Positions 3,097-61,272 of a stretch of 64,000 bases of DNA are shown here, one piece after another (the first letter of the stretch is position 1; each line of letters opens with the position of its first letter). The DNA comes from Thermoanaerobaculia bacterium (lineage in GTDB: Bacteria > Acidobacteriota > Thermoanaerobaculia > Gp7-AA8): positions 38,956 to 102,955 of the forward strand of contig JBBRTE010000015.1 of the NCBI GenBank assembly GCA_038244715.1, written 5' to 3'. Position numbers and translations under genes: made by a program. The notes beneath the pieces were generated by a model. The model was not told the DNA's origin and searched no databases. It saw nothing but the letters and a program-made list of their open reading frames with translations.

Positions 3097-3579
3097 TCAG
3101 ACGGGCCCTTCGCTGCGAAGCAGGCGCCCCAGATTTGCCATCTCGATGGCCGCAAGCGCTGCTTCCCACCCTTTGTTCCCGCTGCCGGCGGACGAGCGCG
3201 CCACCGCCTGCTCCTGCGTATTGCAGGTGATGACGCCGAACGCCACGGGGAACCGGGACTCGATAGCGATCCGGGAGAGATCGTTCGTCACCTGCGCGGA
3301 GATGAAGTCGAAGTGCGGGGTGTCGCCACGAAGCAGGCAGCCCAGCGCGACCACGGCATCGTGCCGGCCGCCATCGATCAGTCTCGCCGCGAACGTGGGA
3401 ATCTCGAACGCACCGGGAACGCGATAGATCTGAATCGCATCGTCGGAAACACCATGCCGGATGAGGCAATCAATGGCGCCTCGCAGCAGTCCATCGACGA
3501 TCTCGTCGTTGAACCGACTGGCGACAATGGCGACACGCAAACCTTCAGCGTTGTGATCGCCTTCGAAAGAGCGGGGCAT
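3097..3579 (-). CDS. ribH: 6,7-dimethyl-8-ribityllumazine synthase
   Basis: 160 aa, RVAIVASRFNDEIVDGLLRGAIDCL...FEIPTFAARL...DAVVALGCLLRGDTPHFDFI...; typical RibH length and motifs. Confidence 0.9.
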   Translation of the reverse strand: MPRSFEGDHNAEGLRVAIVASRFNDEIVDGLLRGAIDCLIRHGVSDDAIQIYRVPGAFEIPTFAARLIDGGRHDAVVALGCLLRGDTPHFDFISAQVTNDLSRIAIESRFPVAFGVITCNTQEQAVARSSAGSGNKGWEAALAAIEMANLGRLLRSEGPV

Positions 3580-6261: not shown

Positions 6262-7656
6262 TCAGGTCCCCAGCATCCGCGGGACCGCGCGCCAGTAACC
6301 CGTCTCTCTCTCGAAGTAGCTCGCCGCCCGGAAGAGAGCGCGTTCCGAAAATTGCGGCGCCATGATCTGCAGCGACAGAGGCAGCCCCTGGCGGGAAAAG
6401 CCCGAAGGGACGGCGATCGCCGGGATGCCGACCAGATTCGCCGGCGCCGTGAAGATGTCACTGAGGTACATCGACAACGGATCGTCCGTTTTCGCGCCGA
6501 TTGGGAACGCCGGCTCGGGCGTCGTCGGCGTCAGGAGAAAATCGAACCTCCCGAACACCGCGTCGAAATCCGCACGCAGCTTCGCGCGCACCGCCTGCGC
6601 TTGACCGTAGTACGCGTCGTAGTAGCCGGAAGAAAGTGCAAACGTCCCGAGCATGATGCGGCGCTTGACCTCGTCCCCGAATCCTTCGCCGCGCGATTCC
6701 AGATAGACCTCGTGCAATGTCTTCGCGCGCGCGCTGCGATGGCCGAATCGGACGCCGTCGAACCGGGAAAGGTTCGCGCTCGCCTCCGCGTTCGCGAGGA
6801 TGTAGTAGATAGCGATGGCGTAGCCGATCGTGGGGACACTGGCCTCTTCCACGATCGCCCCGCCGCTGCGCAGGACGGCGATCGCTGCGTCGAAGTTCGC
6901 GCGCATCTCCCCCTCCAGCTGACCGACAGCTTCCCGCACGACCCCGAAGCGAAGCCCGCGGACTCCGGAATCGAGATCGGCGGCGTAGTCGTCGATCGCG
7001 TGTGCCGATGATGTTGAGTCAAGAGGATCGTGACCGGCGATGAGGCCCAGGATCTCAGCGGACTCCCTGACGGTCTTCGACACGATGCCGATCTGGTCGA
7101 CGCTGGAGCCGAAGGCCACCAGCCCGTTCCTGCTCACACGGCCGTACGTGGGCTTGAGTCCCACGACCCCGCAGAGCGCAGCCGGCTGCCGGACCGAGCC
7201 GCCCGTCTCCGAGCCGAGAGCAATGGGAACCATGCGCGCGGCGACGGCCACCGCGGAGCCGCCTGACGAACCGCCCGGAACGCGGGTTGGATCCCACGGA
7301 TTGCGCGTCGGACCGAAAGCGGAGTGCTCCGTCGATGATCCCATCGCGAATTCGTCGAGATTGGTCTTTCCAACGATGCTGCATCCCGCCGCGCGCAGAC
7401 GGCCGACCGCCGTGGCGTCGAACGGCGACACGAACCGGCCGAGGATCCTGGACGCACACGTGGTCGGCATGCCGGTCGTGACAATGTTGTCCTTCACCCC
7501 GAGAGGCATCCCGTCTTCCGAGTCGCGCGCGACGTGAAGAAACGCGTTCAGAGACGGATTCAACCGATCGATGGCCGCGAGGGAGGCGGCCACCAGCTCC
7601 CGTCCACTCGCTGCCGCACGCGCCTCATGCCAGGGAAGGTGCAGGAGGTCAGTCAC
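6262..7656 (-). CDS. gatA: Glutamyl-tRNA(Gln) amidotransferase subunit A
   Basis: 464 aa with amidase signature GGSSGGSAVAVAARMVPIALGSETGGSVRQPAALCGVVGLKPTYGRVSR; followed by gatC with an 8-nt overlap. Confidence 0.9.
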   Translation of the reverse strand: MTDLLHLPWHEARAAASGRELVAASLAAIDRLNPSLNAFLHVARDSEDGMPLGVKDNIVTTGMPTTCASRILGRFVSPFDATAVGRLRAAGCSIVGKTNLDEFAMGSSTEHSAFGPTRNPWDPTRVPGGSSGGSAVAVAARMVPIALGSETGGSVRQPAALCGVVGLKPTYGRVSRNGLVAFGSSVDQIGIVSKTVRESAEILGLIAGHDPLDSTSSAHAIDDYAADLDSGVRGLRFGVVREAVGQLEGEMRANFDAAIAVLRSGGAIVEEASVPTIGYAIAIYYILANAEASANLSRFDGVRFGHRSARAKTLHEVYLESRGEGFGDEVKRRIMLGTFALSSGYYDAYYGQAQAVRAKLRADFDAVFGRFDFLLTPTTPEPAFPIGAKTDDPLSMYLSDIFTAPANLVGIPAIAVPSGFSRQGLPLSLQIMAPQFSERALFRAASYFERETGYWRAVPRMLGT

Positions 7657-7936
7657 CGATCACCTTCGGCACGATGAAATGTCCGTCGTCGCTGAACGCC
7701 GGGGCGTTGGCGGCCACGGCGCTGCGCGCGACCGTCGGACCAGGGACATCGTCTCGCAGCGGCGTGCCGGTCGCGGCTGGAATCACGTCGACGCCGCGCA
7801 CGTCGACTTCGCGGAGCTGATCGATGTACGAGAGGATTTTCGTCATCTCCTCCGCCATTCGTTCGAGTCCCGCTTCATCGAACTCGAGATGGGCCAGAGC
7901 AGCGACGCGTCGCGCTTCGTCGCGATCGATCTTCAT
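7649..7936 (-). CDS. gatC: Asp/Glu-tRNA amidotransferase subunit C
   Basis: 95 aa, MKIDRDEARRVAALAHLEFDEAGLERMAEEMTKILSYIDQL; GatC-like and immediately upstream of and overlapping gatA. Confidence 0.8.
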   Translation of the reverse strand: MKIDRDEARRVAALAHLEFDEAGLERMAEEMTKILSYIDQLREVDVRGVDVIPAATGTPLRDDVPGPTVARSAVAANAPAFSDDGHFIVPKVIGD

Positions 7937-7946
7937 CGCCGGGAGT

Positions 7947-9626
7947 CTATGCCAGGCGTGCGTTCAGCATGTCGAGGAAGCGCTGCGTCAGTTCCGGGTC
8001 GAACTGCGTTCCGGCTCCCTGGGCCATCTTGACCGCGGCCTGGTCGAGACTTTCCGGAGCGGCATAACTGTCCGAGGCGATCATCGTCTCGTAGACATCA
8101 CAGATCTGGACGAGGCGTGTCACCGCCGGGATGGCGGTGCCCATCAGGTTGTTCGGATAGCCGAGTCCATCCCACCGTTCGTGATGGTAGAGCACGGCCC
8201 GCGCGATTTCATGTCCGAGGAGCGGCTCCACGATGGCGGCACTCACGGCGGGATGTTCCCGCAGGATCGCCAGCTCATCGGGCGAGAGGTTCTCGCGCCT
8301 GTAGAGATTGTCGTAGTCGAGCAGCCGCATGCCGACGTCATGGATGAGGGCCACGATGCGCGCCGTCTCCGCCTCCACCGGACTCAGACGCACGAACCGC
8401 GCGAATGCCTCAACCCGTGACGCGACCGCCTCGGAATGCCGGCGCAATTCGGGGTACTTCGAGAAATCGGGTTCCAGAAGCGCCACGGCAATGTTGGAGC
8501 GAATCTGCTGGAGCGCACGGCGCGACAGGGAGCTCTCGATGGCTACCTGGAGCTGACGGTGAAACACCGAGAGCAGTTCGTGGACAGCGCGTTCGGGCGC
8601 CGCGATGAACACAACGGTGAGGTAGATCCCGCGCAGGGACACCGCGACAACCGGTGCCGTGAAGACCTTGTTGATCTGTTGCTCGCGGATCGGCACCTCT
8701 TCGACGCCGAGAGGGAGCACGACGTTGGTCTTCAACAACCCGCCCGGCTCGCCGCGCTTGGTGAGCCACAGATTCAGCTTGGACTGCAGGACATTCAGCG
8801 CGTCGTCGGTGAGGGTCGACCGCGCGGCCACCTCCTGCACGCCGCCCAGATGGCCGTACGCGGAGACCATGGCCACAACGGCGCCCGGAAGCAGGAGCAA
8901 CGCCCGCAACATTTCCCGGATCGTCGCCAGGTCCGACTCGTCGATCGACTGCGGCGCGGCCGGAGGGGCAATCTGCTCCGCGTTGCTGCGCGCTTCCAGG
9001 ATCAGCGACGGAAGCCGCGGCACATGACTGGCCGGCTGCCGCTCCACAGGCCAGAGCGATGGCTTCGCCTGCGCGATCGTTGGCGGCCTTGAGGCAGGAA
9101 CCTCAGGTCCGGCATCGGTGATAGGGACGCTGACCCCGAGCACGACGGCCTTTTCCGGCGCTTCGGAAAGCGTGATGAAGTGCTGTCCGAAAACGTTCTT
9201 CTTTCTGAATTGCTCGCCGATCCGGTCGGCGATTTTCTGCGCCTTCGGCAGGTCGGACACGTCGAACAAAACCTTGCCCTGTTTGTCGCGCATGTCGATC
9301 ACGCCGACCAGGTGACCACGCAGGTAGATCGGTGCGGCCATCAGCCGGTCGCTGGCCGATTCGAACATGACCAGAGAGAACCGGGGCTCCGCGTTCAGAC
9401 CGTTCACGAAGAACGGCGTCCGCCCGCGGCCGCAACGATCGATGATCGGATCCGTCCGGTCCGCCGACGTGCGGACCGCATTGCGGAAGCCGTACTCGGT
9501 GACGAGCTCGAAGCGGCCCTGCGCGTCAAGAAGATAGAGCGCAGCCTTCGTGGCGCGAATCTCCACGGCACAGTCGTAAAGGATCTCCTTCAGTTTTGAT
9601 TGAAGTTCCTGAACCTCGGGATGCAC
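7947..9626 (-). CDS. GAF-domain-containing HD-GYP phosphodiesterase (c-di-GMP signalling)
   Basis: 559 aa. N-terminal GAF-like region. C-terminal HDVGM...HHERWDGLGYP, the HD-GYP signature. Confidence 0.85.
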   Translation of the reverse strand: MHPEVQELQSKLKEILYDCAVEIRATKAALYLLDAQGRFELVTEYGFRNAVRTSADRTDPIIDRCGRGRTPFFVNGLNAEPRFSLVMFESASDRLMAAPIYLRGHLVGVIDMRDKQGKVLFDVSDLPKAQKIADRIGEQFRKKNVFGQHFITLSEAPEKAVVLGVSVPITDAGPEVPASRPPTIAQAKPSLWPVERQPASHVPRLPSLILEARSNAEQIAPPAAPQSIDESDLATIREMLRALLLLPGAVVAMVSAYGHLGGVQEVAARSTLTDDALNVLQSKLNLWLTKRGEPGGLLKTNVVLPLGVEEVPIREQQINKVFTAPVVAVSLRGIYLTVVFIAAPERAVHELLSVFHRQLQVAIESSLSRRALQQIRSNIAVALLEPDFSKYPELRRHSEAVASRVEAFARFVRLSPVEAETARIVALIHDVGMRLLDYDNLYRRENLSPDELAILREHPAVSAAIVEPLLGHEIARAVLYHHERWDGLGYPNNLMGTAIPAVTRLVQICDVYETMIASDSYAAPESLDQAAVKMAQGAGTQFDPELTQRFLDMLNARLA

Positions 9627-9697
9627 GAGGGGAGTTTAACCCGCCGCCGTGGCCGGGCTGAACTCCGACCCTGACTCGTGCCACGGCCCGTCAGACC

Positions 9698-9925
9698 TCA
9701 GGCTCGGAGTGCAGCGATCTTATCGAGGATTTCCCGTTCCGTCGGAAACCGCCCTTCGTCGCCTTTTGAGAAGATGATTTTCTGATCGACGGTGACGACG
9801 AAAATCCCGCCGCTTCCGCGCACGATCTCACTGTCGAGGTCATGCTCGCGTTTGATCTCGGCCGCCAGACTGGAGGCTCGGGGGAGATAGTTTCAAACGC
9901 CGCAGTAGTCGATTCGAATGTGCAT
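9698..9925 (-). CDS. selW: Selenoprotein W-like (Rdx family) protein with in-frame UGA (putative selenocysteine) in the CxxU motif
   Basis: Not in the ORF track. Reverse-strand ATG at 9925-9923, in-frame TGA at 9895-9893 (codon 11), stop TGA at 9700-9698. Translation MHIRIDYCGV-U-NYLPRASSLAAEIKREHDLDSEIVRGSGGIFVVTVDQKIIFSKGDEGRFPTEREILDKIAALRA (75 aa). Aligns along its length with SelW (VxYCGxUGY...GSGGxFEVxV...LIxSKK..GxF). High GC3 is maintained after the UGA. Confidence 0.7.
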
Positions 9926-45721: not shown

Positions 45722-46333
45722 ATGCGCATTGCCATTCCCAAAGGACGACTGCAGGACCGCGCCCTCGGCGTCTTCGCCGGAGCCGGGTACAACGTGCCCA
45801 CGGACAACGACCTCAAGACCCGCAAGCTGGTGTTCGAGCGTGATGGGATCGAGTGGATCTTCGTCAAGGACGGCGACGTACCGGTCTACGTGGAGCACGG
45901 CGCCGCCGACGCCGGCATCGCCGGACTCGATCAGATCCTCGAGCACGAGTGCACCGCCTACCAACCAGTCGAGTTCCCGTTCGGCCGCTGTCGGATGATG
46001 CTGATCGCCGCTCCCGACGCACCGCCGCTGACGAAAGTGGCGACGAAGTATCCGCGCATCACGCGCCAGTTTCTCGAGAGCCGCGGGATCCGCGCCGAGA
46101 TCGTGCCGCTCAACGGTTCGGTCGAGCTGGCCGCCGTGCTGAATCTGACCTCGCACGTGGTCGATCTCGTCGAAACGGGAGAGACCGTGCGCGTGCATCA
46201 CCTGGAGTTGCAGGATGTGATCGCGGAAATCAGTCCGCGGCTGATCGTCGGGAAGAACTTCTACCGGACGGAACAGAAGCTCGTGCGCGACATGATCACG
46301 CGCATCGAGGAGGCGATGAATGTCGCGCGTTGA
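45722..46333 (+). CDS. hisG: ATP phosphoribosyltransferase (short form)
   Basis: MRIAIPKGRLQDRALGVFAGAG...; the alternative TTG at 45713 overlaps the hisZ stop. Short HisG is consistent with the presence of HisZ. Confidence 0.88.
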   Translation: MRIAIPKGRLQDRALGVFAGAGYNVPTDNDLKTRKLVFERDGIEWIFVKDGDVPVYVEHGAADAGIAGLDQILEHECTAYQPVEFPFGRCRMMLIAAPDAPPLTKVATKYPRITRQFLESRGIRAEIVPLNGSVELAAVLNLTSHVVDLVETGETVRVHHLELQDVIAEISPRLIVGKNFYRTEQKLVRDMITRIEEAMNVAR

Positions 46334-46428
46334 GTGCCACGGCGGCGGGGTCGCCCGGTTTCGTGATCGCGCGATTGCGGCCTGTTCGCTAAGGCAAATC
46401 TGGTCTCCCATCCAGAGTGCAGCCGCCG

Positions 46429-46583
46429 ATCGTGAGGTCCTTCGCCCCCGCGCGAGCGGGGGAGAAGGTGGCCGAAGGCCGGATGAGGGGGCTCTGATCG
46501 GCGCGCAATGCCACGCCCCTCACCCGCACTCCGCTTCGCTCCGTGTCTCCCTCTCCCCGCTGTCGCGGGGCGAGGGTTGCTCG
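46429..46583. repeat. REP-like palindromic intergenic element, copy 1 (~155 bp)
   Basis: Near-identical to 46723-46877 (2 mismatches). Contains the palindromes CCCCCGCGCGAGCGGGGG and CCCCGCTGTCGCGGGG. Confidence 0.7.
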
Positions 46584-46722
46584 CGCTCAAACAGCGGGCC
46601 GGGGTTGCCTTCGACGACGTTTGGGCGTCGTCCCTTCCTGGACCAGGGAGATGCTCTGAATCGCAAGGGCTCGACGGCGGTTGAGCCTGATCGCTCGATC
46701 CATCAAGGTCTACAGGCTCTGA

Positions 46723-46877
46723 ATCGTGAGGTCCTTCGCCCCCGCCCGAGCGGGGGAGAAGGTGGCCGAAGGCCGGATGAGGGGGCTCTGATCGGCGCGC
46801 AATGCCACGCCCCTCACCCGCACTCCGCTTCGCTCCGTGTCTCCCTCGCCCCGCTGTCGCGGGGCGAGGGTTGCTCG
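46723..46877. repeat. REP-like palindromic intergenic element, copy 2
   Basis: Direct repeat of 46429-46583, 294 bp apart, between hisG and hisD. Confidence 0.7.
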
Positions 46878-46953
46878 GTGGGGAGGATTGGTGAAGAGAT
46901 CGAAAATCCCCATCGCGATTTCCAATCCGACCGATCTTTGCTCACCGTACAAG

Positions 46954-48132
46954 GAACCCACCATGCAGCCTGCTGACATCGACCTCGCGCTGAAGGATCT
47001 TGAAACCCGCCGTGGCAGCTCGAACGACAACGCCATGCGCGTCGCAACCGAGATGATCGCCGGCGTGCGCGCTCGTGGCGACGCGTTCGTCACCGAGCAG
47101 ATCCAGCGCTTCGACCGGGTCACCGTCGACCCGATTCTCATCACGCCCCGCGAGACGTCGATCGACCCCGCGATGCGCGAGGCCATCGAGACCGCCATCG
47201 AGCGCATCGACGCCTTTCATCGGCCGCAGCTTCCGCAGTCCTATCGATGGGAAGGGATGGAGCACCGCGTTCGTCCCTTGCGGCGCGTCGGGATCTACGT
47301 ACCTGGTGGCCGCGCGGTCTATCTCTCGACGCTCATCATGTGCGCGGTGCCTGCGCGCATCGCGGGCGTACGCGAACTGGTCGTGATCACGACGCCGGGC
47401 GCCGCCGCTCGCGACGAGCTCCACTACGCTTGCAAACGCCTCGGCATCACGGCGATCTACCAGTGCGGTGGCGCCGCCGGCATCGCGGCCGCCGCCCTCG
47501 GCACCGAGTCGCTGCCGCGCGTCGACAAGATCGTCGGTCCCGGCAATCAGTACGTCACGGCGGCCAAGGCGCTGCTCGTCGGAACCGTCGGTATCGACAT
47601 GACCGCCGGCCCCACGGAGCTCGTCGTCATCGCAGACGCGTCGTCGAACCTCGCATTCGTGCAGGCCGATCTCGACGCACAGGCCGAGCACGGCGACGAC
47701 TCCGCGGTCATCTGCATCTCCATCGGAAAGACACTCGATGTCCGCGCGACGCTGAATCTCACCGTCGGTTCGGTGGCCGAGGCGGCGGCGCTGGCCGACC
47801 GGATCGCGCCGGAGCATGTCTCCATCCACGCCGTCGACGCGGACCAGATTGCCGCGCACCTGGAAAATTGCGGCGCGATCTTCTGCGGTCCGTTTTCGCC
47901 GGTCGCCGCCGGCGATTACGTGGCTGGTCCGAACCACGTCCTCCCCACCGGCGGCAGTGCCCGTTTCTTCTCCCCTCTCGGCGTCTACGATTTCGTGAAG
48001 CGTTCGAATGTGATCAGCCTCACGGAGGATGCGCTCACAGCCATCGCTGACGCTGGCGAACGGATCGCCAGTTTCGAAGGGCTGCCCAGACACGCCGCCT
48101 CCATCGCGGCACGGAGGACTCATGTCGCGTGA
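46954..48132 (+). CDS. hisD: Histidinol dehydrogenase
   Basis: ORF 46837.. trimmed to ATG 46954, because upstream in-frame sequence is repeat element. ...IYVPGGRAVYLSTLIMCAVPARIAGV...AQAEHGDDS...HAVDADQ. Confidence 0.88.
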   Translation, partial: EPTMQPADIDLALKDLETRRGSSNDNAMRVATEMIAGVRARGDAFVTEQIQRFDRVTVDPILITPRETSIDPAMREAIETAIERIDAFHRPQLPQSYRWEGMEHRVRPLRRVGIYVPGGRAVYLSTLIMCAVPARIAGVRELVVITTPGAAARDELHYACKRLGITAIYQCGGAAGIAAAALGTESLPRVDKIVGPGNQYVTAAKALLVGTVGIDMTAGPTELVVIADASSNLAFVQADLDAQAEHGDDSAVICISIGKTLDVRATLNLTVGSVAEAAALADRIAPEHVSIHAVDADQIAAHLENCGAIFCGPFSPVAAGDYVAGPNHVLPTGGSARFFSPLGVYDFVKRSNVISLTEDALTAIADAGERIASFEGLPRHAASIAARRTHVA

Positions 48133-54514: not shown

Positions 54515-55819
54515 ATGAAACGATTCCTCATCGCATCACTCCTCCTCGTCGCCTCCGTGGCGCAGGCCAAAGAGGTGCTTCCGTGGATCGAGAACGACTA
54601 CACCAAGGCAATCGCCCGTGCCCGCGCCGCAGACCTTCCGGTCTTCGTCGAGGCGTGGGCGCCGTGGTGACACACGTGCCGCTCCATGAGGGCCTATGTC
54701 TTCACGGACAAGACCCTTGAGCGGTACGCCGGACGGTTCGTCTGGCTCTCGATCGACACGGAAAACGCAACGAACACGGCCTTCCTGAAGGCGCATCCGA
54801 TCAGCGTCTGGCCGACGTTGCTCATCCTCGACCCGAAGGACAAGGTCGTCTTCCGTTACCCCGGCGGAGGGACGGTGGCGCAGGTCCGCAAATTGCTCGA
54901 CGATGGCGAACGCGCGGCACGCGGCTCACATGCGAAGGCCGACATCGCCTTCGTACGCGCCGATGCTCTGGCCGGAGAGGGAAAGCAGGCCGAAGCGGCG
55001 AAGGCGTTCGATGAGGCAATCGCCGCGGCGCCGAAACACTGGCCGGGCCTCGGACGCGCCTCCGAGTCGCTGGTCCTGGCGCTCGCGCAGAGCCGGGATC
55101 CGCAGCGTTGCGCCGAGCGTGCGCTCGCCCTCTACCCACGCATTCGCGGAACGGGATCAGCGGTGAACGTCGCAGGCATGGGTCTCTCGTGTGCGACGGA
55201 TCTCGACGCCGCGAAATCGTGGAATCGCTCCGAGCTCATCGCCGGCCTGGAGAAGGCGACGCGCGAAACGCTTGCCGCAGCCGACCGGATCCGGATGTCC
55301 GCCGATGATCGCTCCGGCCTCTACGAATCGCTCATCGAGGCGCGTGTCGAGGCGAAGGACGAAGCCGCCGCCCGAGCCCTCCGCGAACAACAGGCCGCGT
55401 TCCTCGAGGCAGAGGCGGCGAAGGCGAAAACACCCGACCAGCGGGCCGTCTATGATCCCCACCGCCTCACCGTCTACCTCGGACTGAAGCAGCCGGAAAA
55501 AGCGATTGCGATGCTGGAACAGTCCGAGCGCGATCTGCCGAAGGACTACAACCCGCCCGCGCGCCTCATCTCGGCGTACAAGGCAGCGAAGCGTTACGAC
55601 GACGCCATCGCCGCATCCGACCGTGCGCTCAAACTCGCGTACGGCCCGCGCAAGATCGGCATCTACCGCAACCGCGCATCGGTCTACATCGCGAAGGGTG
55701 ACAAGGACGAGGCGAAAACGACCATCGAGGAAGCGATCCGCTACGCCGAGTCGCTTCCGAAAGAGCAGCAGAGCGAAGCCCAGGTCGCGTCGATGAAGAA
55801 ACAGTTGACGACGATGTGA
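54515..55819 (+). CDS. Secreted thioredoxin-like (Thioredoxin_7/DsbD-gamma-like) + TPR protein with UxxC redox motif: putative selenoprotein (in-frame TGA at 54668-54670)
   Basis: ATG 54515: MKRFLIASLLLVASVAQA (signal) KEVLPWIENDYTKAIARARAADLPVFVEAWAPW-U-HTCRSMRAYVFTDKTLERYAGRFVWLSIDTEN...WPTLLILDPKDKVVF. TGA sits exactly where the first Cys of the WCxxC thioredoxin motif is expected. Same frame continues into the track ORF 54686..55819 (TPR-like C-terminal domain). 434 codons. Confidence 0.65.
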
Positions 55820-55827
55820 GGTCGAGG

Positions 55828-55857
55828 CCTGGTAATCCTCCCACGAGGGTTACCAGG
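55828..55857. terminator. GC-rich hairpin between convergent genes (terminator-like, no U-tract)
   Basis: CCTGGTAA-tCCTCccacGAGGg-TTACCAGG, in the 70-nt gap between convergent genes. Confidence 0.3.
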
Positions 55858-55890: not shown

Positions 55891-58692
55891 CTAGTGTCTC
55901 GCCGCCCGTGTCCTTGGCGGAGCGATCGCGGTCACAAGACCGGCGTTGCTGTCGACCGGACTGCCGCAGGCGCCGGTGATGCGGACCCAGTACGAGGTGT
56001 TGCCGCTGATCGCGCCGGTGACGAACGTCGCCGAGTCGGTGCCGTACGGCTTGGACGTATCGCCCTTCGCGCCCTGGAACCATTGATAGTGCAGGCCGTT
56101 CCCGGCGCCCGTTACGTGGAGGGTGGCCGCAGTGCCGATGGGGGCGGTCGTGTTCGCCGGCTGCGTGGTAATGAATGGGCTCGAGCAGCCGATCGTGACG
56201 ATGGCCGTGTTGCTGTCGGCGCTCTGCACGCTGCTGCAGTTGTTCGTGACGCGCACCCAGTACTTCGCCGTGACGGAGGGCGATTGCGTCAGTGACGCGT
56301 TCGTGGCGCCGGTGATCGGATTGGCGGTGTCGCCCTTGTCGCCGACGAACCATTGGAAGGTGAACGGAGCCGTGCCTCCCGCGACGACGGTCAGCGTCAC
56401 CGGCGCGCCCGCGTTGATCGTCGTGCTTGCCGGTTGCGCGGCGATCGTCGGCGCCGTGCAGACTGTGCCGCTCACGAAGACGACGACGCTGGCGTCCTGG
56501 CTGCCGCAGGGGGCGGTCACGCGCACCCAGAAACCGGTCGTCACGGTGGGGGAAACGAGGGTGCTCTGCGTCGCCGCGATCGGCGTGGACGTATCGCCGA
56601 CGTTCCCGCGGTACCACTGGAACGTGAATGGTCCGGTTCCGTTCGTCGTCACGTTGAGCGTGGAGGACTGTCCGTTGTTGATCGTCGAGGGAGTGGCGAC
56701 GGGCGAGCCGGAGATGGGCGCGCAGGTCACGGTCACGGTCGTCGACGCGCTGTCAAACGCCGGCGCGCACTGGCCGTTGATGCGCACCCAGTACGAGGTG
56801 GTCGCTGCCGGCGTGACCGTCAGGAACGCGCTGTTGGCGCCGATCGGACTGCTGGTGTTTGGGGACGTGCCGATGTACCACTGATACGTAAACGGCCCCG
56901 TTCCCGTGGGGCTCACCGAGAGCGAGCTCGATTGTCCCTGCGGGATGGAGGACGGCGATGCGAAGGGCGCCGAGGCGGATGGCGGGACGCAGGCGGCAAC
57001 GGTCACGGTCGTCGTCGCGCTGTCGGAGTTTGGCGTGCAGGCTCCGAAGACGCGGACCGAGTATTGCGTCGTCACGGACGGCGAAACGGTGATGACGTTG
57101 TTGCTCGTCACGCCGCCGATCGGCGCGCCGGTCGACGGCGTTCCGCCGCTGAACCACTGATAGGTCAGCGGTCCGCTACCGGTGGCGTTTTCGGTGAGCG
57201 TGCTGGATTGTCCCGAAGCGATTGACGACGGCGATGCGAGCGGCGCCTGCGCTGAGGGAGGTGTGCAAGTCGTAACGGTCACCGTTGCCGGATTGCTGTT
57301 TAGAGGGGCGCCGCAGGCGGTTACTTGAACCCAATACGTCGTTGTACTTGGCGGCGTCACGGTCAATGACGATGACGTTCCGTTTGGAGCCGTCGTCGTT
57401 GTGGTGGGTGGGGTTCCGATGTACCACTGATACGCGGCGCTCGTGCCCGCAGCGGCTACTGTGAGCGTCGTCTGGCTTCCCGAGACAATCGACTTATTGG
57501 ACGGTTGGCCGGAAATCGTCGGAGCGAAGCAGTAGTCGAAGGTCGCCGATGGGGACGCCCAACGTGTGTTCGAAAGGTAATCCGCGGGAACGCCCGTACC
57601 GGTTTTGCCCGCGTATACGGTCCGGATGGCGTCGAGGTCCCATTGCTGCAAGATCAGAACATTGATGGTCGAGTTCATGATCGCGTTGCTGGTACAAAAC
57701 GACACGCATGGGTTGCCGAACGTGTCCTGGTCCGAATGGCGTAGACCCAACGTATGACCGAGCTCGTGGGTCATTACGGCGTTAAACGTTGACTGACTCA
57801 TGCTGAAGTTCTTTCCGACGACCACGTCTACCTCGCTGGTTGATCCGCTGGTCACGTCAGAAACGCCACCGGCAGCGGCAACACCCGGCGGAAGAAGGTT
57901 TGCCGGATCATTGAAAAGTACCGCCGTGATGTGGTCCAAGGTGCTGAGACCTCCGGTCGCGTTCGGGTTGGCAACACCGAGGCGGTAGTTCACGCCAGCG
58001 CCGGCGCCATTCCAGTTGCTTGTCGCAGCACTAATCGCACTCACTCCATCGAGACCGCCCGGGACTGCGGCGTCGGGTTTCGGTGCAAATCCGGACGCGA
58101 CGCGCAACGTTTGGTCTGACTGAAGAAAGTAGTCTGAACGTGCGGGCGCACCCGACTTGGCGCTTAGGGTCTTGACGAATGCCTCAAACGCGATTGCATC
58201 CCGCACTCTCTCAACGTGGGACGCATTTCCAATCTCATCCCAACCTGAGATCGCCTCACCGATTCCGCGAGTCAGGACCTGATCGCCGGAGGGATCGACG
58301 GAATATTGGAATTGCCCCAGGCCGAAACCGTAGGTGGCCCACCCGTCCGGCGTACGCCGCAGGAATACCAGGTATTGCTTACCAGCAGCGTAGCGCGGCG
58401 ATCCAGAGATGAAGGTAACCCTATTTCCTACTGCGCCACCGGCTTCGACGAGATCGATCGTTCGCTGGTTGCCAAAGTCCCCTTTGAAGACTTCGTCCAC
58501 GGCGAGCGTTGCAATCGTCACGACGCATCCGTCGCGCGTGATCTCAGAATGGGAGGTGACAGCCGTGGCGATGACGATTGCTTCCGACCGCATCACCAGA
58601 TCTCGATCGGTGGGAACGATGTACGTGGCGGCCTGCAGGGACGTGGCAGCAGCCAGGAACGACACAATCAACAAACGGACGTGGATTTTCAA
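55891..58692 (-). CDS. Secreted zinc metalloprotease (HExxHxxGxxH, matrixin/M10-like) followed by eight tandem Ig-like repeats
   Basis: Track ORF 55891..61218 (1775 aa) trimmed to the TTG at 58692, after which comes a canonical signal peptide (M)KIHVRLLIVSFLAAATSLQA. Catalytic motif VMTHELGHTLGLRHSDQ. C-terminal half has eight ~85-aa repeats, each with a [YF]QW[YF] motif and conserved Cys pair. Confidence 0.75.
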   Translation of the reverse strand: MKIHVRLLIVSFLAAATSLQAATYIVPTDRDLVMRSEAIVIATAVTSHSEITRDGCVVTIATLAVDEVFKGDFGNQRTIDLVEAGGAVGNRVTFISGSPRYAAGKQYLVFLRRTPDGWATYGFGLGQFQYSVDPSGDQVLTRGIGEAISGWDEIGNASHVERVRDAIAFEAFVKTLSAKSGAPARSDYFLQSDQTLRVASGFAPKPDAAVPGGLDGVSAISAATSNWNGAGAGVNYRLGVANPNATGGLSTLDHITAVLFNDPANLLPPGVAAAGGVSDVTSGSTSEVDVVVGKNFSMSQSTFNAVMTHELGHTLGLRHSDQDTFGNPCVSFCTSNAIMNSTINVLILQQWDLDAIRTVYAGKTGTGVPADYLSNTRWASPSATFDYCFAPTISGQPSNKSIVSGSQTTLTVAAAGTSAAYQWYIGTPPTTTTTAPNGTSSSLTVTPPSTTTYWVQVTACGAPLNSNPATVTVTTCTPPSAQAPLASPSSIASGQSSTLTENATGSGPLTYQWFSGGTPSTGAPIGGVTSNNVITVSPSVTTQYSVRVFGACTPNSDSATTTVTVAACVPPSASAPFASPSSIPQGQSSSLSVSPTGTGPFTYQWYIGTSPNTSSPIGANSAFLTVTPAATTSYWVRINGQCAPAFDSASTTVTVTCAPISGSPVATPSTINNGQSSTLNVTTNGTGPFTFQWYRGNVGDTSTPIAATQSTLVSPTVTTGFWVRVTAPCGSQDASVVVFVSGTVCTAPTIAAQPASTTINAGAPVTLTVVAGGTAPFTFQWFVGDKGDTANPITGATNASLTQSPSVTAKYWVRVTNNCSSVQSADSNTAIVTIGCSSPFITTQPANTTAPIGTAATLHVTGAGNGLHYQWFQGAKGDTSKPYGTDSATFVTGAISGNTSYWVRITGACGSPVDSNAGLVTAIAPPRTRAARH

Positions 58693-58697
58693 TGCGA

Positions 58698-58709
58698 TCT
58701 CTCTCTCTC
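58698..58709. repeat. (TC)6 dinucleotide repeat in the ribosome-binding region of the metalloprotease gene
   Basis: tctctctctctc lies 6-17 nt upstream of the TTG start; it reads (GA)6 on the mRNA. Confidence 0.8.
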
Positions 58710-58769
58710 GGCGAATGGGATGGGGGCAAGTTATTGTACACAATGCCCGGATCGCAGTGGTGTCCTGGA

Positions 58770-61142
58770 TCACACTGCGCTCGCGAGCATGCGCCGGCGC
58801 CGGATCCCCATTCCCAAGCCCCCACCACAGAGCAACACCAGTGTTGAGAGCGAGATGGCTCGTCCGCGCACGAAGCTGTCGGGCAGATAGGTCAACCGGA
58901 TGCTGTGTCCGCCAGGAGGCACATACACGCCGATGAAGGCGGTATTCGCGAAGAAGTGCTCGACGCGGCGGTCGTCGATGTAGACGCGCCATCCGTCCCA
59001 CCGCGGCTCGGTGATGACCACCCAGGAACCGGAGGCGGTTGCGGCATCGATGACGAGATCGCCCGATTCTCGCCGCACACCGGCGATCGTGCCGCCCTCG
59101 TTGGCGCGCTCGCCCGCGGCCAGCGGAGCTTCGATCCAGGCGCGCTGGTGGAAGTCCGACGCGGCCGTCATGGCTTTGATCGTCTCGTCGAACCCCGTGC
59201 CGAACACGACTCGCACCGGCACGAACGCGCGGGGAAAGACGCGCAAATTCTCCAGGAGCTCCGCACCACGCTGTGTGGCGACGACGCGCCAGCCGGCATC
59301 CGGCGGGATGTGCTCCGAGGCGATGGCGTAACGCACGTTGAGCATGGAGAGGAATGGTTTGGAGAGATCGTCGACACGGTTGAACCAGACCGGTTGATGC
59401 TTGCACCAGGCATCGTAGGTGGCGACATAGCGCGAGAAGGTCATCGCCTCGTATCCACGAACGTCTTCCAGTTCGTAGAGCGCACTCGATCCGGGGACGA
59501 GTGCATGCGCGCGTCCGACGATGCGGAACGGTGCGCCGCCGCGCGCGATCGCGCGCAGGATCGGAATCGGCGGATAGGCCCCATACGCCGGCAACGTCGG
59601 GTAGATGTCGCGGCCGGCCATCCACCGTTGTGCGGTGAGGAGCACGAGGATGGTCATGGCCATCGTCAGACCACGGGCCCGGACCAGCAACAGCACGATC
59701 GCCGCTACCCCGAGACAGAACAACTCGCCGAAGAGGGTGTAGACGCCCCACTCCTTGCTCAGCGCCACCTGCAGGCGTTCGATCAGGAAGAGGCTTCCCG
59801 CAAGGAGGAACGTCGCTCCCGCCAGCGCGTAGCCGAGTGTACGGTCGTGCGTGCGCAGGGCGTGTTCGAGGCCGAGAACCGCCAGGACGACGAGGGAAAA
59901 CGCGGCGGCGAAACAGAATCGCTCGTTGAGCGTGATGTCGAACAACGGCAGCTTCTGCAGAAGCGCCGCAAGCGGAGTCCATGCCGCCGCACAGAGGATT
60001 CCAAAGAGCGCCAGGGCCGCGAAAAACGCGACCTCGCGCCGGCGTACGCGGGCCAGCGCGTAGAGAGCCAGCGCGACGATGATGCTGCCGGCGGCCGAGG
60101 TCTCGAGAGGATTCCAGTGGGGACTCTTGTGCAGCCACCAGCCCCCGTGAAGGTGGGGGAAGAAGTCCATCAGGATCCGGGCACGGCTCTCGTCGGCGGA
60201 GACGCCGCGCGGGACGTCGCGGTAGCCGCCGGTGCGGAACTGCTGCTCCATCGTCTGCGGCGCCGCCTCGAGCATGGGCAGGAGGTAGATCGCCGACAGC
60301 AGCAACGCGATCGCTCCGGCGGCACCCGCGCCGAGAAGTACGCGCGGGACCGCGCGCCGCACGACGAGCAACTCGACGACGCCGTAGAGCGCTCCGCAGA
60401 AGACGATATGAAAGGCCGTCTCGGGATGGCCGGCCAGGAGCAGCAGCGTGAGCACGGTCATCAATGCCGTCGCCGTACGCAGACCCGGCTCGTGCACGCA
60501 ACGGCGCGTGGTGAAGAGCACGAGCGGCAGAAACGCCCACGAGCCCCCGAGAGACCAGAGGACGAAGAAGGCCATCGATCCCGAATACATCCAGCCCGCC
60601 GCCGCGCAGAGGGCCACGGATTCGCGGCAGCCGAGCTCCCGCGCGAAGAGAAACGCGCCGAGGCCAGCCAGGAAGAAGGTGAGCGCAGCGGTGAAAGTGA
60701 TGCTGTGCGCCACCGGCAGCAGACAGGCAATCCACGTGAAGGGCGAGTACGCCGCCGGCTGCGCCGCAGCCGCAAGCTGGGTCCCGGAGAGCATGAACGG
60801 ATTCCAGAGCGGCCATCGATGATGGGCGAGCGCGAACTGCACGGCTTTCCGCCACGGGATCATCTGCGCATAGAGATCGGAGAGCATCCCGTTGTGCGGG
60901 CGCGGCATTCCGAGAGGAACGCGCATGTCGCGCAACGGTTCGGTGAGGTAGGGAAGATCGACCGGCCCGAAAACGCCCCCCGTCAGAAGTGCCTTTCCCG
61001 TGATGCACAACGGCAGCAGCAACAGCACGATCGCAGCCCCCCGCGAAACGGGCGTCAGCGTCCGCCGCGCGAGCCAGAGCAGGAGCACCGCCGTGATGAC
61101 GTACAGCAGGAATGACATGGGTCGCGGAGTGTACCTGCTCAC
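58770..61142 (-). CDS. Large polytopic membrane protein, YfhO/GT-C-like (putative glycosyltransferase)
   Basis: 790 aa. ~13 TM helices in the first ~520 aa and a C-terminal soluble domain. Topology resembles YfhO/ArnT-type GT-C enzymes. Confidence 0.6.
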   Translation of the reverse strand: MSRYTPRPMSFLLYVITAVLLLWLARRTLTPVSRGAAIVLLLLPLCITGKALLTGGVFGPVDLPYLTEPLRDMRVPLGMPRPHNGMLSDLYAQMIPWRKAVQFALAHHRWPLWNPFMLSGTQLAAAAQPAAYSPFTWIACLLPVAHSITFTAALTFFLAGLGAFLFARELGCRESVALCAAAGWMYSGSMAFFVLWSLGGSWAFLPLVLFTTRRCVHEPGLRTATALMTVLTLLLLAGHPETAFHIVFCGALYGVVELLVVRRAVPRVLLGAGAAGAIALLLSAIYLLPMLEAAPQTMEQQFRTGGYRDVPRGVSADESRARILMDFFPHLHGGWWLHKSPHWNPLETSAAGSIIVALALYALARVRRREVAFFAALALFGILCAAAWTPLAALLQKLPLFDITLNERFCFAAAFSLVVLAVLGLEHALRTHDRTLGYALAGATFLLAGSLFLIERLQVALSKEWGVYTLFGELFCLGVAAIVLLLVRARGLTMAMTILVLLTAQRWMAGRDIYPTLPAYGAYPPIPILRAIARGGAPFRIVGRAHALVPGSSALYELEDVRGYEAMTFSRYVATYDAWCKHQPVWFNRVDDLSKPFLSMLNVRYAIASEHIPPDAGWRVVATQRGAELLENLRVFPRAFVPVRVVFGTGFDETIKAMTAASDFHQRAWIEAPLAAGERANEGGTIAGVRRESGDLVIDAATASGSWVVITEPRWDGWRVYIDDRRVEHFFANTAFIGVYVPPGGHSIRLTYLPDSFVRGRAISLSTLVLLCGGGLGMGIRRRRMLASAV

Positions 61143-61272
61143 CGCGCAATCGGACGAAGTGACCGGTTGCTTTCAAGCCTCGCGTTCCAACGTCGCTTCG
61201 CACGAAACGACCAGTCATTCCGAGCCGGCGGAGCGGGCTTCCGGTGGGCGAACAACTGCGAGGAGCCCGCGA

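What the first reader, a model, noticed from the sequence alone, without database searches (positions are those of the whole stretch)
54515..55819. Second selenoprotein candidate: secreted thioredoxin-like/TPR protein with UxxC active site
A signal peptide (MKRFLIASLLLVASVAQA) and a thioredoxin-like N-terminal domain (PWIENDY...KAIARARAADLPVFVEAWAPW) run straight into TGA (54668-54670), followed by HTCRSMRAYVFTDK...FVWLSIDTEN...WPTLLILDPKDKVVF. This is the WCxxC-K.M..VF.D layout of DsbD-gamma/Thioredoxin_7 domains with the first Cys replaced by UGA. The same frame continues into the annotated TPR-like ORF. Without recoding the gene would be read as a TPR protein starting at 54686 with a 51-codon orphan upstream. 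Two UGA-recoded redox genes in one 64-kb window suggests the organism is a Sec user with a selenoproteome that standard annotation would miss.
Basis: partly seen in the sequence, partly recalled or inferred. Interest (0 to 1): 0.8.

Follow-up and report, generated by a model that had tools for sequence, protein, structure and literature searches.

The report
Secreted thioredoxin–TPR selenoprotein, misannotated everywhere
The in-frame TGA is a real selenocysteine codon in the active site of a secreted thioredoxin-like/TPR protein that is widespread in soil Thermoanaerobaculia, that gene callers cut short at that codon, and whose insertion signal has an unusual two-hairpin layout.

Summary
One frame runs from ATG 54515 to the stop at 55817-55819, with a single in-frame TGA at 54668-54670.

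- **Conservation:** the same codon is TGA in 78 of 80 species-level relatives (53-86% protein identity). The other two carry TGC. The signal peptide and the first half of the thioredoxin fold are conserved in frame upstream.
- **Cys forms:** they read WAPW-C-HTC where the window has WAPW-U-HTC. One of them is 81% identical and syntenic.
- **RNA structure:** two hairpins follow the UGA. They show covariation and the strongest synonymous-site constraint in the gene. All six Cys forms have damaged the first hairpin.
- **Sec use:** three related loci (other genomes) carry tRNA-Sec about 8-9 kb downstream of the homologous gene. The window also holds a SelW-like selenoprotein gene (9698-9925, minus strand). 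SelA, SelB and SelD were not found in any sequence I held.

The second hairpin has the same loop type as the SelW-like gene's canonical SECIS, but its loop sits 65 nt from the UGA instead of 21. I infer that the first hairpin acts as a spacer.

The protein is a new family within the known kind of thioredoxin-fold UxxC selenoproteins. Its function, an envelope thiol-disulfide oxidoreductase, is inferred.

The parts
54515..55819 (+). Complete recoded coding sequence: 434 codons including Sec52, with TGA stop at 55817-55819.
   Evidence: Searches show a single frame. Searches show the same frame conserved across the TGA in 80 loci. One search aligns it with full-length Cys homologues.
54515..54568 (+). 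Signal peptide, codons 1-18 (MKRFLIASLLLVASVAQA), with a predicted signal peptidase I site after AQA.
   Evidence: Read from the sequence: a K/R n-region, a hydrophobic core and an AxA motif. An N-terminal hydrophobic leader is present in all relatives. AF2 pLDDT is below 50 for residues 1-21 of the Cys homologue. Many distant members have lipobox-like leaders instead. No signal-peptide predictor was available.
54584..54835 (+). Thioredoxin_7-type thioredoxin-fold domain, residues 24-107.
54668..54670 (+). Selenocysteine codon UGA (residue 52), the first position of the U-H-T-C redox motif.
   Evidence: The aligned codon is TGA in 79 of 81 sequences (78 of 80 loci plus the window) and TGC in two. 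It is Cys in the full-length homologues P0001, P0092-94, P0108, P0110 and P0117. The wider family reads W-C-H-x-C.
54677..54679 (+). Resolving cysteine codon (Cys55, TGC) of the UxxC motif.
   Evidence: Searches show it in the window. It is invariant in the relatives.
54686..54688 (+). Internal Met58 codon, used as a false start by gene callers.
   Evidence: One search lists the 377-aa ORF. In some searches the 376-377 aa database entries begin at this Met. Met58 is an invariant residue of the thioredoxin motif C-R-S-M.
54676..54727 (+). Hairpin H1 of the SECIS region: a 52-nt imperfect hairpin whose apical loop lies 29-32 nt after the UGA.
   Evidence: The 79-nt region from the UGA to the end of H2 (54668-54746), which contains H1 and H2, folds to an MFE of -41.2 kcal/mol with z -4.8. 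In 68 distinct Sec forms, 80-89% of cells pair, against 32-50% for slid controls, with covariation at columns 30:54, 33:51 and 36:49. The outer stem is degraded in all 6 Cys forms and kept through changes on both strands in a diverged paralogue.
54728..54746 (+). Hairpin H2: GCCGGAC-(G/A)GUU(C/U)-GUCUGGC. This is the candidate SelB-binding hairpin.
   Evidence: 97% of cells pair, and 74:78 covaries as G:C or A:U. Folded alone it gives -11.8 kcal/mol with z -3.9. The gene-wide minimum of synonymous variation falls at codons 68-80, including the unusual Gly codon GGA in 69 of 75. Its loop type is the same as in the canonical SECIS of the window's SelW-like gene.
54935..55810 (+). All-helical TPR-like domain, residues 141-432, with invariant Cys199 and Cys226.

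Best explanation
**What it is.** The region 54515-55819 is one gene for an exported selenoprotein of 434 residues. It has a cleavable signal peptide, a Thioredoxin_7-type domain whose redox motif is Sec52-His-Thr-Cys55, and a TPR superhelix of about 300 residues. The UGA at 54668-54670 is decoded as selenocysteine by tRNA-Sec and SelB.

**What is shown.**
- The UGA and the reading frame on both sides of it are conserved.
- Cys replaces Sec in a minority of orthologues.
- A two-hairpin RNA structure (H1 54676-54727, H2 54728-54746) is conserved and covaries in Sec forms. H1 decays in Cys forms.
- tRNA-Sec occurs in related genomes, and the same window carries a second selenoprotein gene.

**What is inferred about recoding.** H2 carries the loop type R-G-U-Y-Y on a G+C-rich stem. 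The SelW-like gene in this window uses the same loop type at the canonical 21-nt spacing. I therefore take H2 to be the SelB-binding hairpin. H1 loops out 52 nt of constrained coding sequence, so that H2 ends up close to the UGA. I put this part at about 0.5.

**What is inferred about function.** In the cell envelope the Sec52/Cys55 pair would act as a thiol-disulfide (selenenylsulfide) oxidoreductase. The TPR domain would hold client or partner proteins. This would make it an extracytoplasmic analogue of Trx-TPR proteins.
For: **The UGA is conserved and translated.**
- The aligned codon is TGA in 78 of 80 GTDB species-representative loci, which span 53-86% protein identity, and TGC in two.
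- The upstream 51 codons are conserved as protein while their synonymous sites vary, for example Ala49 as GCA 26, GCG 26, GCC 19. They are therefore translated in this frame.
- Thioredoxin_7 spans the UGA.
- TGA is otherwise an ordinary stop codon here. This gene itself ends in TGA, as do many neighbours.

**Cys/Sec pair.**
- Full-length Cys homologues align Cys exactly with the UGA.
- One of them is 81% identical and lies in the same his-operon/amidohydrolase/Ig-protein neighbourhood.
- The wider family motif is W-C-H-x-C.

**RNA structure.**
- The region from the UGA to the end of H2 folds to -41.2 kcal/mol, z -4.8, with 0 of 200 shuffles as good.
- 87.4% of cells pair against 32-50% in slid controls, and 0 of 500 shuffles reach the covariation score.
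- The synonymous-site minimum lies at codons 68-80.
- Mean MFE is -41.7 in 79 Sec forms and -29.4 in 6 Cys forms. All six Cys forms have mutated the GAGCGG 3' strand of H1.
- H1 is kept by changes on both strands in a tandem paralogue.

**Sec trait.**
- tRNA-Sec scores 69-71 bits on RF01852 against a gathering score of 47, with discriminator G read in L036, in L022, L030 and L036.
- The SelW-like gene in the window has a conserved TGA: Rdx family at E 3.8e-17, and TGA in 69 of 69 homologues.
- Acidobacteria are known Sec users (PMC1794560).

**H2 as the SelB site.**
- SelW-like SECIS loops are AGUCU or AGUUU, 21 nt after the UGA in 69 of 69.
- H2 loops are GGUUC, AGUUC or AGUUU.
- Both fit the published loop pattern N1-G-[G|U]-N-N2 with N1 and N2 paired (PMC13188914).

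**Fold and location.**
- AF2 gives pLDDT 90.
- The thioredoxin domain is closest to exported Trx7/DsbD-gamma-like proteins.
- E. coli YbbN/CnoX is the only solved Trx+TPR architecture hit.
Against: - **Machinery not verified.** SelA, SelB and SelD were not found in any sequence I held. No tRNA-Sec lies in the window itself.
- **Canonical SECIS model not met.** Neither hairpin alone satisfies it. H1's loop usually lacks a G in its first two positions. H2's loop starts 65 nt from the UGA, outside the 16-37 nt range. No Rfam family matches, even at E 10.
- **H2 is not Sec-specific.** It is still intact in 4 of 6 Cys forms. It is either a slowly decaying relic or has another role.
- **H1 must partly melt.** A ribosome with the UGA in its A site must have unwound part of H1's outer stem, so the simple juxtaposition picture is a simplification. 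This point is an inference.
- **No direct evidence of expression, selenium content, export or activity.** The signal peptide was judged by eye.
- **No redox partner nearby.** No DsbD/CcdA-like gene is linked.
Confidence: 0.85

Rival explanations
1. The gene is a selenoprotein gene, but the SECIS is H1 alone. On this reading H1 is a long hairpin at the canonical distance with a lineage-specific, non-consensus loop. H2 is then not the SelB site. It would be a relic, an accessory stabiliser, or be conserved for some other reason.
For: H1's apical loop lies 29-32 nt after the UGA, inside the published 16-37 nt range. H1 is the element lost in every Cys form, whereas H2 survives in 4 of 6. H1 carries most of the covarying pairs.
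Against: H1's loop sequence is variable (UCAC, ACAC, UUCACC, GUUC and others) and mostly lacks the consensus G. H2 has an invariant G-U in a loop identical in type to the SelW-like SECIS of the same genome. H2 also shows the strongest synonymous constraint in the gene.
Confidence: 0.3
2. The UGA is read by a tRNA other than tRNA-Sec, so the product carries Cys or Ser at position 52 rather than Sec. Candidates are an acidobacterial allo-tRNA(UCA) opal suppressor or a selC*-type tRNA-Cys.
For: Acidobacteria carry allo-tRNAs with 8/4 and 9/3 structures that may act as nonsense suppressors. In other phyla, selC* tRNA-Cys mimics tRNA-Sec (PMC5389517). SelA and SelD were not verified.
Against: The tRNAs found next to the gene in three loci score as tRNA-Sec, well above the Rfam gathering score. 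The one read (L036) has discriminator G rather than U. A SECIS-type structure is conserved downstream, which a general suppressor would not need. TGA remains the normal stop codon of neighbouring genes. The paper reports selC* in Firmicutes, Thermodesulfobacteria, Nitrospirae and Proteobacteria, not in Acidobacteria.
Confidence: 0.04
3. The TGA terminates translation. The locus would then be a pseudogene, a sequencing error, or two genes: a 51-residue secreted peptide plus a cytoplasmic TPR protein starting at Met58.
For: This is how gene callers and public databases read it, giving 376-377 aa 'TPR repeat proteins'.
Against: The same TGA occurs in 78 of 80 species-level relatives with the frame preserved on both sides, which rules out an error or decay. 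Termination would cut a thioredoxin fold in the middle of its active site. Cys forms are single 433-437 aa proteins. No purine-rich ribosome-binding site precedes ATG 54686 (read).
Confidence: 0.02

Closest known systems
Thioredoxin-fold UxxC bacterial selenoproteins (Sec-thioredoxin PF00085, thiol:disulfide interchange protein PF13098, thiol-disulfide isomerase-like, DsbA-like, DsbG-like), as listed in PMC13188914 and PMC1794560
   Same: Both have a thioredoxin fold with Sec as the N-terminal, attacking residue of a UxxC motif. Both have Cys orthologues, a UGA within the coding region followed by an mRNA structure, and predicted envelope redox roles. The window protein passes the PF13899, PF00085 and PF13098 thresholds.
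   Different: The window protein is fused to a TPR domain of about 300 residues and has the motif W-U-H-T-C. No curated NCBIfam model reaches its cut-off. No Trx7-TPR family appears in the 2026 inventory text. The SECIS does not fit the canonical single-hairpin model. I did not compare it directly with the listed representative sequences.
Trx7/PDZ domain-containing (seleno)protein, NCBIfam NF041199
   Same: Both are Thioredoxin_7-type domains that can carry Sec, fused to a protein-binding module.
   Different: The score is 20.2 bits against a cut-off of 300. That family's motif is CxxU, with Sec in the second position. Its partner domain is PDZ, not TPR.
YbbN/CnoX chaperedoxins (PDB 3qou, 3qdn)
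   Same: Both have an N-terminal thioredoxin domain followed by a TPR domain. They are the only solved structures that Foldseek matched over both domains. CnoX combines redox protection with holdase activity (PMC8129009 and PMC6282202, abstracts).
   Different: CnoX is cytoplasmic and contains no Sec. Its thioredoxin domain is the classical type, and in E. coli the motif is SQHC. Its TPR part is much shorter (the whole chain is about 280 residues). The global TM-score is only 0.2-0.3, and no CnoX model matched by sequence.
DsbD gamma domain and stand-alone exported Thioredoxin_7 proteins (PDB 1vrs_D, 2kuc, 3f9u)
   Different: The window protein has no DsbD membrane or alpha domains (30.9 bits against 330 for the DsbD model). 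It carries Sec instead of the first Cys, and it has a TPR extension.
Canonical bacterial SECIS (E. coli fdh type; the bSECISearch consensus as summarised in PMC13188914), and the SelW-like SECIS in this same window
   Same: H2 has a 7-8 bp G+C-rich stem and a loop fitting N1-G-[G|U]-N-N2 with N1 and N2 paired. This is the same loop type as the SelW-like hairpin GCCUCC-AGUCU-GGCGGC.
   Different: The H2 loop starts 65 nt after the UGA, against 21 nt in the SelW-like gene and 16-37 nt in the consensus. A conserved 52-nt hairpin lies in between. Rfam finds nothing.

Membership tests
Bacterial selenoprotein gene (UGA recoded to Sec) | The in-frame UGA is conserved among orthologues, with the coding frame maintained on both sides. 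| tested here: met
   TGA in 78 of 80 loci plus the window. The upstream and downstream protein is conserved while synonymous sites vary.
Bacterial selenoprotein gene (UGA recoded to Sec) | Cys-containing homologues place Cys at the UGA position. | tested here: met
   The Cys forms read WAPW-C-HTC: P0001, P0092-94, P0108, P0110 and P0117, with TGC or TGT codons in L047, L064 and L082-L085. The wider family motif is W-C-H-x-C.
Bacterial selenoprotein gene (UGA recoded to Sec) | A canonical bSECIS: 3-9 nt loop, G in the first two loop positions, 16-37 nt from the UGA, MFE of -7.5 kcal/mol or lower (PMC13188914). | tested here: inconclusive
   H1 meets the spacing criterion but usually not the loop criterion. 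H2 meets the loop, stem and energy criteria, but its loop starts 65 nt from the UGA. Both hairpins are conserved and covary.
Bacterial selenoprotein gene (UGA recoded to Sec) | tRNA-Sec (selC) is present in the genome. | tested here: inconclusive
   None lies in the 64-kb window. It is present in three related loci that carry the TGA form: RF01852 at 69-71 bits against a gathering score of 47, with discriminator G read in L036. The window's own genome beyond 64 kb could not be read.
Bacterial selenoprotein gene (UGA recoded to Sec) | SelA, SelB and SelD are present. | not testable with these tools
   tblastn with the E. coli proteins found nothing in the window or in about 1.25 Mb of held loci. 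Indirect support comes from a second, classical selenoprotein gene (SelW-like) in the window.
Thioredoxin_7 (PF13899) thioredoxin-fold domain | The Pfam score is above the gathering threshold, with a thioredoxin fold and a CxxC-type motif at the N-terminus of helix 1. | tested here: met
YbbN/CnoX chaperedoxin | A cytoplasmic protein with a classical thioredoxin domain plus a short C-terminal TPR domain, recognisable by sequence or fold as YbbN. | tested here: not met
   A signal peptide is present. No CnoX/YbbN model hit in Pfam or NCBIfam. Foldseek TM-score to 3qou and 3qdn is 0.2-0.3. Only the domain order is shared.
Trx7/PDZ (seleno)protein NF041199 | The NCBIfam score reaches the cut-off, the motif is CxxU, and a PDZ domain is present. 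| tested here: not met
   20.2 bits against 300. The motif here is UxxC. No PDZ hit was found.
DsbD (protein-disulfide reductase) | A three-domain membrane protein whose C-terminal gamma domain belongs to one polypeptide with the transmembrane core. | tested here: not met
   30.9 bits against 330, and only over the gamma-domain region. The 434-residue protein has no DsbD membrane-domain match.
Thiol:disulfide interchange protein selenoprotein family (PF13098, UxxC; PMC13188914) | Homology to the family representative (WP_011366075.1) beyond the generic thioredoxin fold. | not tested
   Only the generic PF13098 hit is known: 28.8 bits against a cut-off of 27.

The most novel reading that the evidence does not exclude
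The recoding signal may be a new architectural class of bacterial SECIS. In it, the SelB-binding hairpin (H2, loop R-G-U-Y-Y) begins 57 nt after the UGA (its loop at 65 nt) rather than at the canonical distance. A conserved, covarying 52-nt 'spacer' hairpin (H1) loops out coding sequence that cannot itself encode a SECIS, and so brings H2 next to the UGA. This would explain why SECIS-based predictors and gene callers miss the whole family. It would also show that the strict UGA-SECIS spacing rule can be met in three dimensions rather than in sequence.
Probability: 0.4. Interest if true: 0.65.

Novelty: new member of a known kind. Interest (0 to 1): 0.55.

Why it matters
**Annotation.** Dozens of database entries from soil, peat and permafrost Thermoanaerobaculia and other Acidobacteriota seen here are truncated at Met58 and named 'TPR repeat protein' or 'hypothetical protein', and the family-wide total is probably far larger. 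Their catalytic domain and signal peptide are missing. Recognising the UGA restores a secreted redox enzyme.

**Selenium biology.** The gene adds a family to the selenoproteome of an abundant but uncultured soil lineage. It also marks these organisms as selenium users.

**Evolution.** The close Sec/Cys pairs offer a natural series for studying how Sec is gained or lost and how a SECIS decays afterwards. One pair is 81% identical at the same locus.

**Recoding.** If the spacer-hairpin reading is correct, the family gives a testable counter-example to the canonical UGA-to-SECIS spacing used by prediction tools.

Tried and rejected
- **Rfam.** The scan of the whole window at gathering thresholds found nothing. 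The scan of 54640-54780 at E up to 10 also found nothing.
- **tRNAs in the window.** ARAGORN found none.
My first scans used GC3 filters and produced only spurious hits. The candidates at 63226 (minus), 42398 (minus) and 36879 (plus) translate to junk. The ORF at 46320-46976 has no Pfam hit. An unfiltered CxxU/UxxC motif scan then found the SelW-like gene.
- **Sec machinery.** tblastn with E. coli SelA, SelB and SelD against all held sequence gave no hit. This is uninformative, because only about 10 kb flanks were held.
- **Genes next to tRNA-Sec in L036.** They are a prepilin peptidase, a TonB-like protein and a BFD-like ferredoxin, not sel genes.
- **Other genes using an H2-like hairpin.** A search of 2.5 Mb, counting both strands, found only a tandem paralogue in L032. 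The two extra matches to the H2 pattern in the window are chance, with no in-frame UGA context.
- **Literature.** There is no mention of a TPR-fused thioredoxin selenoprotein. No BSepDB supplement was held.
- **Libraries and restrictions.** The afdb50 fold library was unavailable. Distant truncated representatives could not be looked up as DNA under the tool's restrictions, so I did not try.
- **Readings rejected.** Pseudogene or sequencing error; two separate genes; a genome-wide UGA reassignment, because TGA is the normal stop here; and membership of CnoX, DsbD or Trx7/PDZ.
Full report
**Observation.**

The + strand frame that starts at ATG 54515 runs to the stop at 55817-55819. It has 434 codons and a single internal stop, TGA at 54668-54670, which is codon 52. 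With the TGA read as Cys, Pfam Thioredoxin_7 matches residues 24-107 (41.8 bits, cut-off 27). That match runs straight across the TGA. Several TPR models match residues 143-425.

**Is the TGA conserved and translated?**

A protein search returned 120 listed relatives.
- Only 7 are full length (433-437 aa).
- The rest cover 87% or less of the query. Most are 376-377 aa, and the three I aligned (P0002, P0020, P0064) start exactly at Met58.
- They carry names such as 'tetratricopeptide (TPR) repeat protein', 'hypothetical protein', or, tellingly, 'thiol reductase thioredoxin'.
- The full-length proteins read EAWAPW-C-HTC-RSM, so Cys sits exactly on the window's UGA.

A scan of one genome per GTDB species found 545 relatives. 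The best 80 loci are all Thermoanaerobaculia or Acidobacteriota MAGs at 53-86% identity.
- 78 of these 80 loci have TGA at the aligned codon. Two (L047, L064) have TGC.
- A signal peptide and the N-terminal half of the thioredoxin fold are conserved in the same frame upstream in every locus.
- The upstream codons vary at synonymous sites while the protein is kept, so they are translated.
- TGA is otherwise a normal stop here. This gene and many neighbours end in TGA, which excludes a genome-wide reassignment.

P0001 is a Cys form that is 81% identical to the window protein. It lies in the same neighbourhood: his operon, amidohydrolase, this gene, then an Ig-like/peptidase gene. That looks like a recent Sec-to-Cys switch.

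**Evidence for Sec usage.**

The window has no tRNA and no Rfam hit. Three related loci (L022, L030, L036) carry a tRNA with anticodon UCA about 8-9 kb downstream of the gene. It matches Rfam tRNA-Sec at 69-71 bits against a gathering score of 47. In L036, the one locus where I read it, the discriminator base is G.

- It is a 75-residue SelW-like protein at 9698-9925 on the minus strand.
- It belongs to the Rdx family (PF10262, E 3.8e-17).
- It has an in-frame TGA at 9893-9895 in a Y-C-G-V-U (CxxU) motif.
- All 69 metagenomic homologues in which I could locate the motif carry TGA there.

SelW-like CxxU proteins are an established bacterial selenoprotein family (PMC13188914). Acidobacteria are known Sec users (PMC1794560; PMC12013277). 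SelA, SelB and SelD were not found in the sequence I held, which is a real gap.

Mukai et al. (PMC5389517) report tRNA-Sec-like allo-tRNAs in Acidobacteria. I therefore keep a low-probability rival in which the UGA is read by a different tRNA.

**The recoding signal.**

Downstream of the UGA, the 79 nt from 54668 to 54746 fold into two adjacent hairpins. The MFE is -41.2 kcal/mol, z -4.8, and 0 of 200 shuffles fold as well.
- **H1 (54676-54727)** is a 52-nt imperfect hairpin.
- **H2 (54728-54746)** is GCCGGAC-(G/A)GUU(C/U)-GUCUGGC.

On 68 distinct Sec-form sequences:
- 87.4% of cells form standard pairs, against 32-50% when the 3' partners are slid.
- Columns 30:54 (GC 40, CG 18), 33:51, 36:49 and 74:78 (GC 41, AU 13) covary.
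- No shuffle out of 500 reaches the observed covariation score.

There is a caveat. The structure was derived from one of these sequences, and the region is coding.

Independent support comes from synonymous sites. Their variability is lowest in the whole gene at codons 68-80, at 0.26-0.28 against about 0.58 typically.
- Ala72 is GCC in 74 of 74.
- Gly73 is the otherwise rare GGA in 69 of 75, and the remaining 6 are GGG, which still pairs.
- Arg74 is CGG in 44 of 44.
- Val76 is GTC in 74 of 75.

RNAalifold on its own recovers the H1 outer stem and H2. A diverged tandem paralogue in L032 keeps the TGA and H2. It also keeps H1, through changes on both strands.

**Sec forms against Cys forms.**

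I compared six Cys forms (L047, L064, L082-L085) with 79 Sec forms.
- Every Cys form has mutated the GAGCGG 3' strand of the H1 outer stem. The amino acids change from LERY to LSQY, LGKY, LDKY, LQPY or LDRY.
- The mean MFE drops from -41.7 to -29.4 kcal/mol.
- H2 is still perfect in four of the six and is degraded only in the two most diverged.

H1 is therefore tied to the Sec state. H2 is either a slower-decaying relic or has another role, and this remains unexplained.

**Which hairpin binds SelB?**

The published consensus (PMC13188914) asks for three things:
- a 3-9 nt loop;
- a G in the first two loop positions, usually as N1-G-[G|U]-N-N2 with N1 and N2 paired;
- 16-37 nt between the UGA and the loop.

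H1 has the right distance at 29-32 nt. Its loop is variable, however, and it usually lacks the G. H2 has exactly the consensus loop, and N1 and N2 covary. Its loop starts 65 nt from the UGA.

The SelW-like gene in the same window supplies the lineage's own standard. Its SECIS is GCCUCC-AGU(C/U)U-GGCGGC, 21 nt from the UGA in 69 of 69 homologues. H2 loops are GGUUC (42), AGUUC (14) and AGUUU (13), and AGUUU is shared by both families.

My inference is that H2 is the SelB site. When H1 closes, it removes 50-52 nt from the path, so that about 12-14 single-strand-equivalent nucleotides plus a helix end separate the UGA from the H2 loop. I rate this at about 0.5. The rival, that H1 alone is the SECIS, is listed separately. 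A ribosome sitting on the UGA must already have opened part of H1, so the real geometry needs experiment.

**The protein.**

- **Model.** AF2 on the Cys homologue P0001 gives pLDDT 90 and pTM 0.85. The N-terminal 21 residues are unstructured, residues 26-136 form a thioredoxin fold, and residues 141-432 are all helical.
- **TPR part.** It resembles peptide-binding TPR superhelices.
- **Whole architecture.** The only solved structures matched over both domains are E. coli and Salmonella YbbN/CnoX, at a low TM-score of 0.2-0.3.
- **Family membership.** No NCBIfam model reaches its cut-off. The nearest selenoprotein models are far below theirs: TsoB at 28 bits against 805, and Trx7/PDZ at 20 bits against 300.
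- **Wider family.** It has 477 clusters at 50% identity with E up to 1e-30. Full-length members carry W-C-H-x-C. About 41 of the best 150 representatives begin at the Met58 equivalent, so they are probably Sec forms. Many distant members have lipobox-like leaders.

From this I infer an envelope thiol-disulfide (selenenylsulfide) oxidoreductase whose TPR domain holds clients or partners. No redox partner gene is linked.

**Novelty and verdict.**

This is a new family within a very well-known kind. Thioredoxin-fold UxxC proteins are the commonest type of bacterial selenoprotein, and more than 100 families are already catalogued (PMC13188914; PMC13326102). I found no description of a Trx7-TPR selenoprotein. 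Broad homology-based catalogues may still already hold it under a generic thioredoxin-like heading.

The more unusual element is the two-hairpin signal, with a consensus-type loop at a non-canonical distance. That is a hypothesis worth testing rather than a result.

Noticed in passing
window 9698-9925 (minus strand); TGA at 9893-9895; SECIS hairpin 9861-9877: This is a second selenoprotein gene: a 75-residue SelW-like/Rdx protein (PF10262, E 3.8e-17) with a YCGV-U motif. All 69 metagenome homologues keep the TGA. They also keep a nearly invariant hairpin, GCCUCC-AGU(C/U)U-GGCGGC, 21 nt after it. Standard ORF lists miss the gene entirely.
   Followed up: yes
L022 19410-19507 (minus), L030 20572-20669 (minus), L036 19447-19543 (plus): tRNA-Sec genes lie about 8-9 kb downstream of the Trx-TPR gene in three different species-level genomes, which suggests loose linkage. 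The closest relatives of the window (L001-L015) show no tRNA-Sec within 10 kb. In the window, the equivalent position would fall at or just beyond its 3' end.
   Followed up: partly
L032, TGA at 7242 (paralogue about 7090-8380) next to the main copy at 8403-9692: A tandem paralogue of the Trx-TPR gene has its own in-frame TGA (motif W-U-H-S-C). Its H2 is identical in type, and its H1 is kept by changes on both strands.
   Followed up: partly
L082 8563-9900: In the syntenic locus of the 81%-identical Cys-form relative, an IS110-family transposase sits between the amidohydrolase and the Trx-TPR gene. This is the one close relative that has switched from TGA to TGC.
   Followed up: no
window 55828-55835 / 55850-55857: An inverted repeat, CCTGGTAA...TTACCAGG, lies just after the gene's stop, between it and the convergent 1775-codon ORF. 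It has no T-run, so the terminator scan did not report it.
   Followed up: no
window 55891-61218 (minus strand): A very long ORF of 1775 aa carries C-terminal Ig-like domains (Ig_7, Ig_3) and a weak metallopeptidase (HEXXH-type) signal. Related proteins lie downstream of the Trx-TPR gene in 38 of the held loci. This may be only synteny, or the protein may be an envelope client.
   Followed up: partly
window 46333-46837: About 500 nt between hisG and hisD has no convincing gene. The ORFs at 46320-46976 (plus) and 46710-47207 (minus) have no Pfam hit. In L082, hisG and hisD overlap directly.
   Followed up: partly
residues Cys199 and Cys226 of the protein (window 55109-55111 and 55190-55192): Two cysteines in the TPR domain are invariant across all aligned Sec and Cys forms. 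They may form a structural disulfide in an exported protein, or act as a second redox site.
   Followed up: no
L084 3291-3811 (minus strand): Next to a Cys-form homologue, two short adjacent genes were called (84 aa with an ArsC-family hit, and 88 aa) that share one base at 3557. I judged them to be in different frames, so this is probably not a TGA-split gene, but I did not check the DNA.
   Followed up: no
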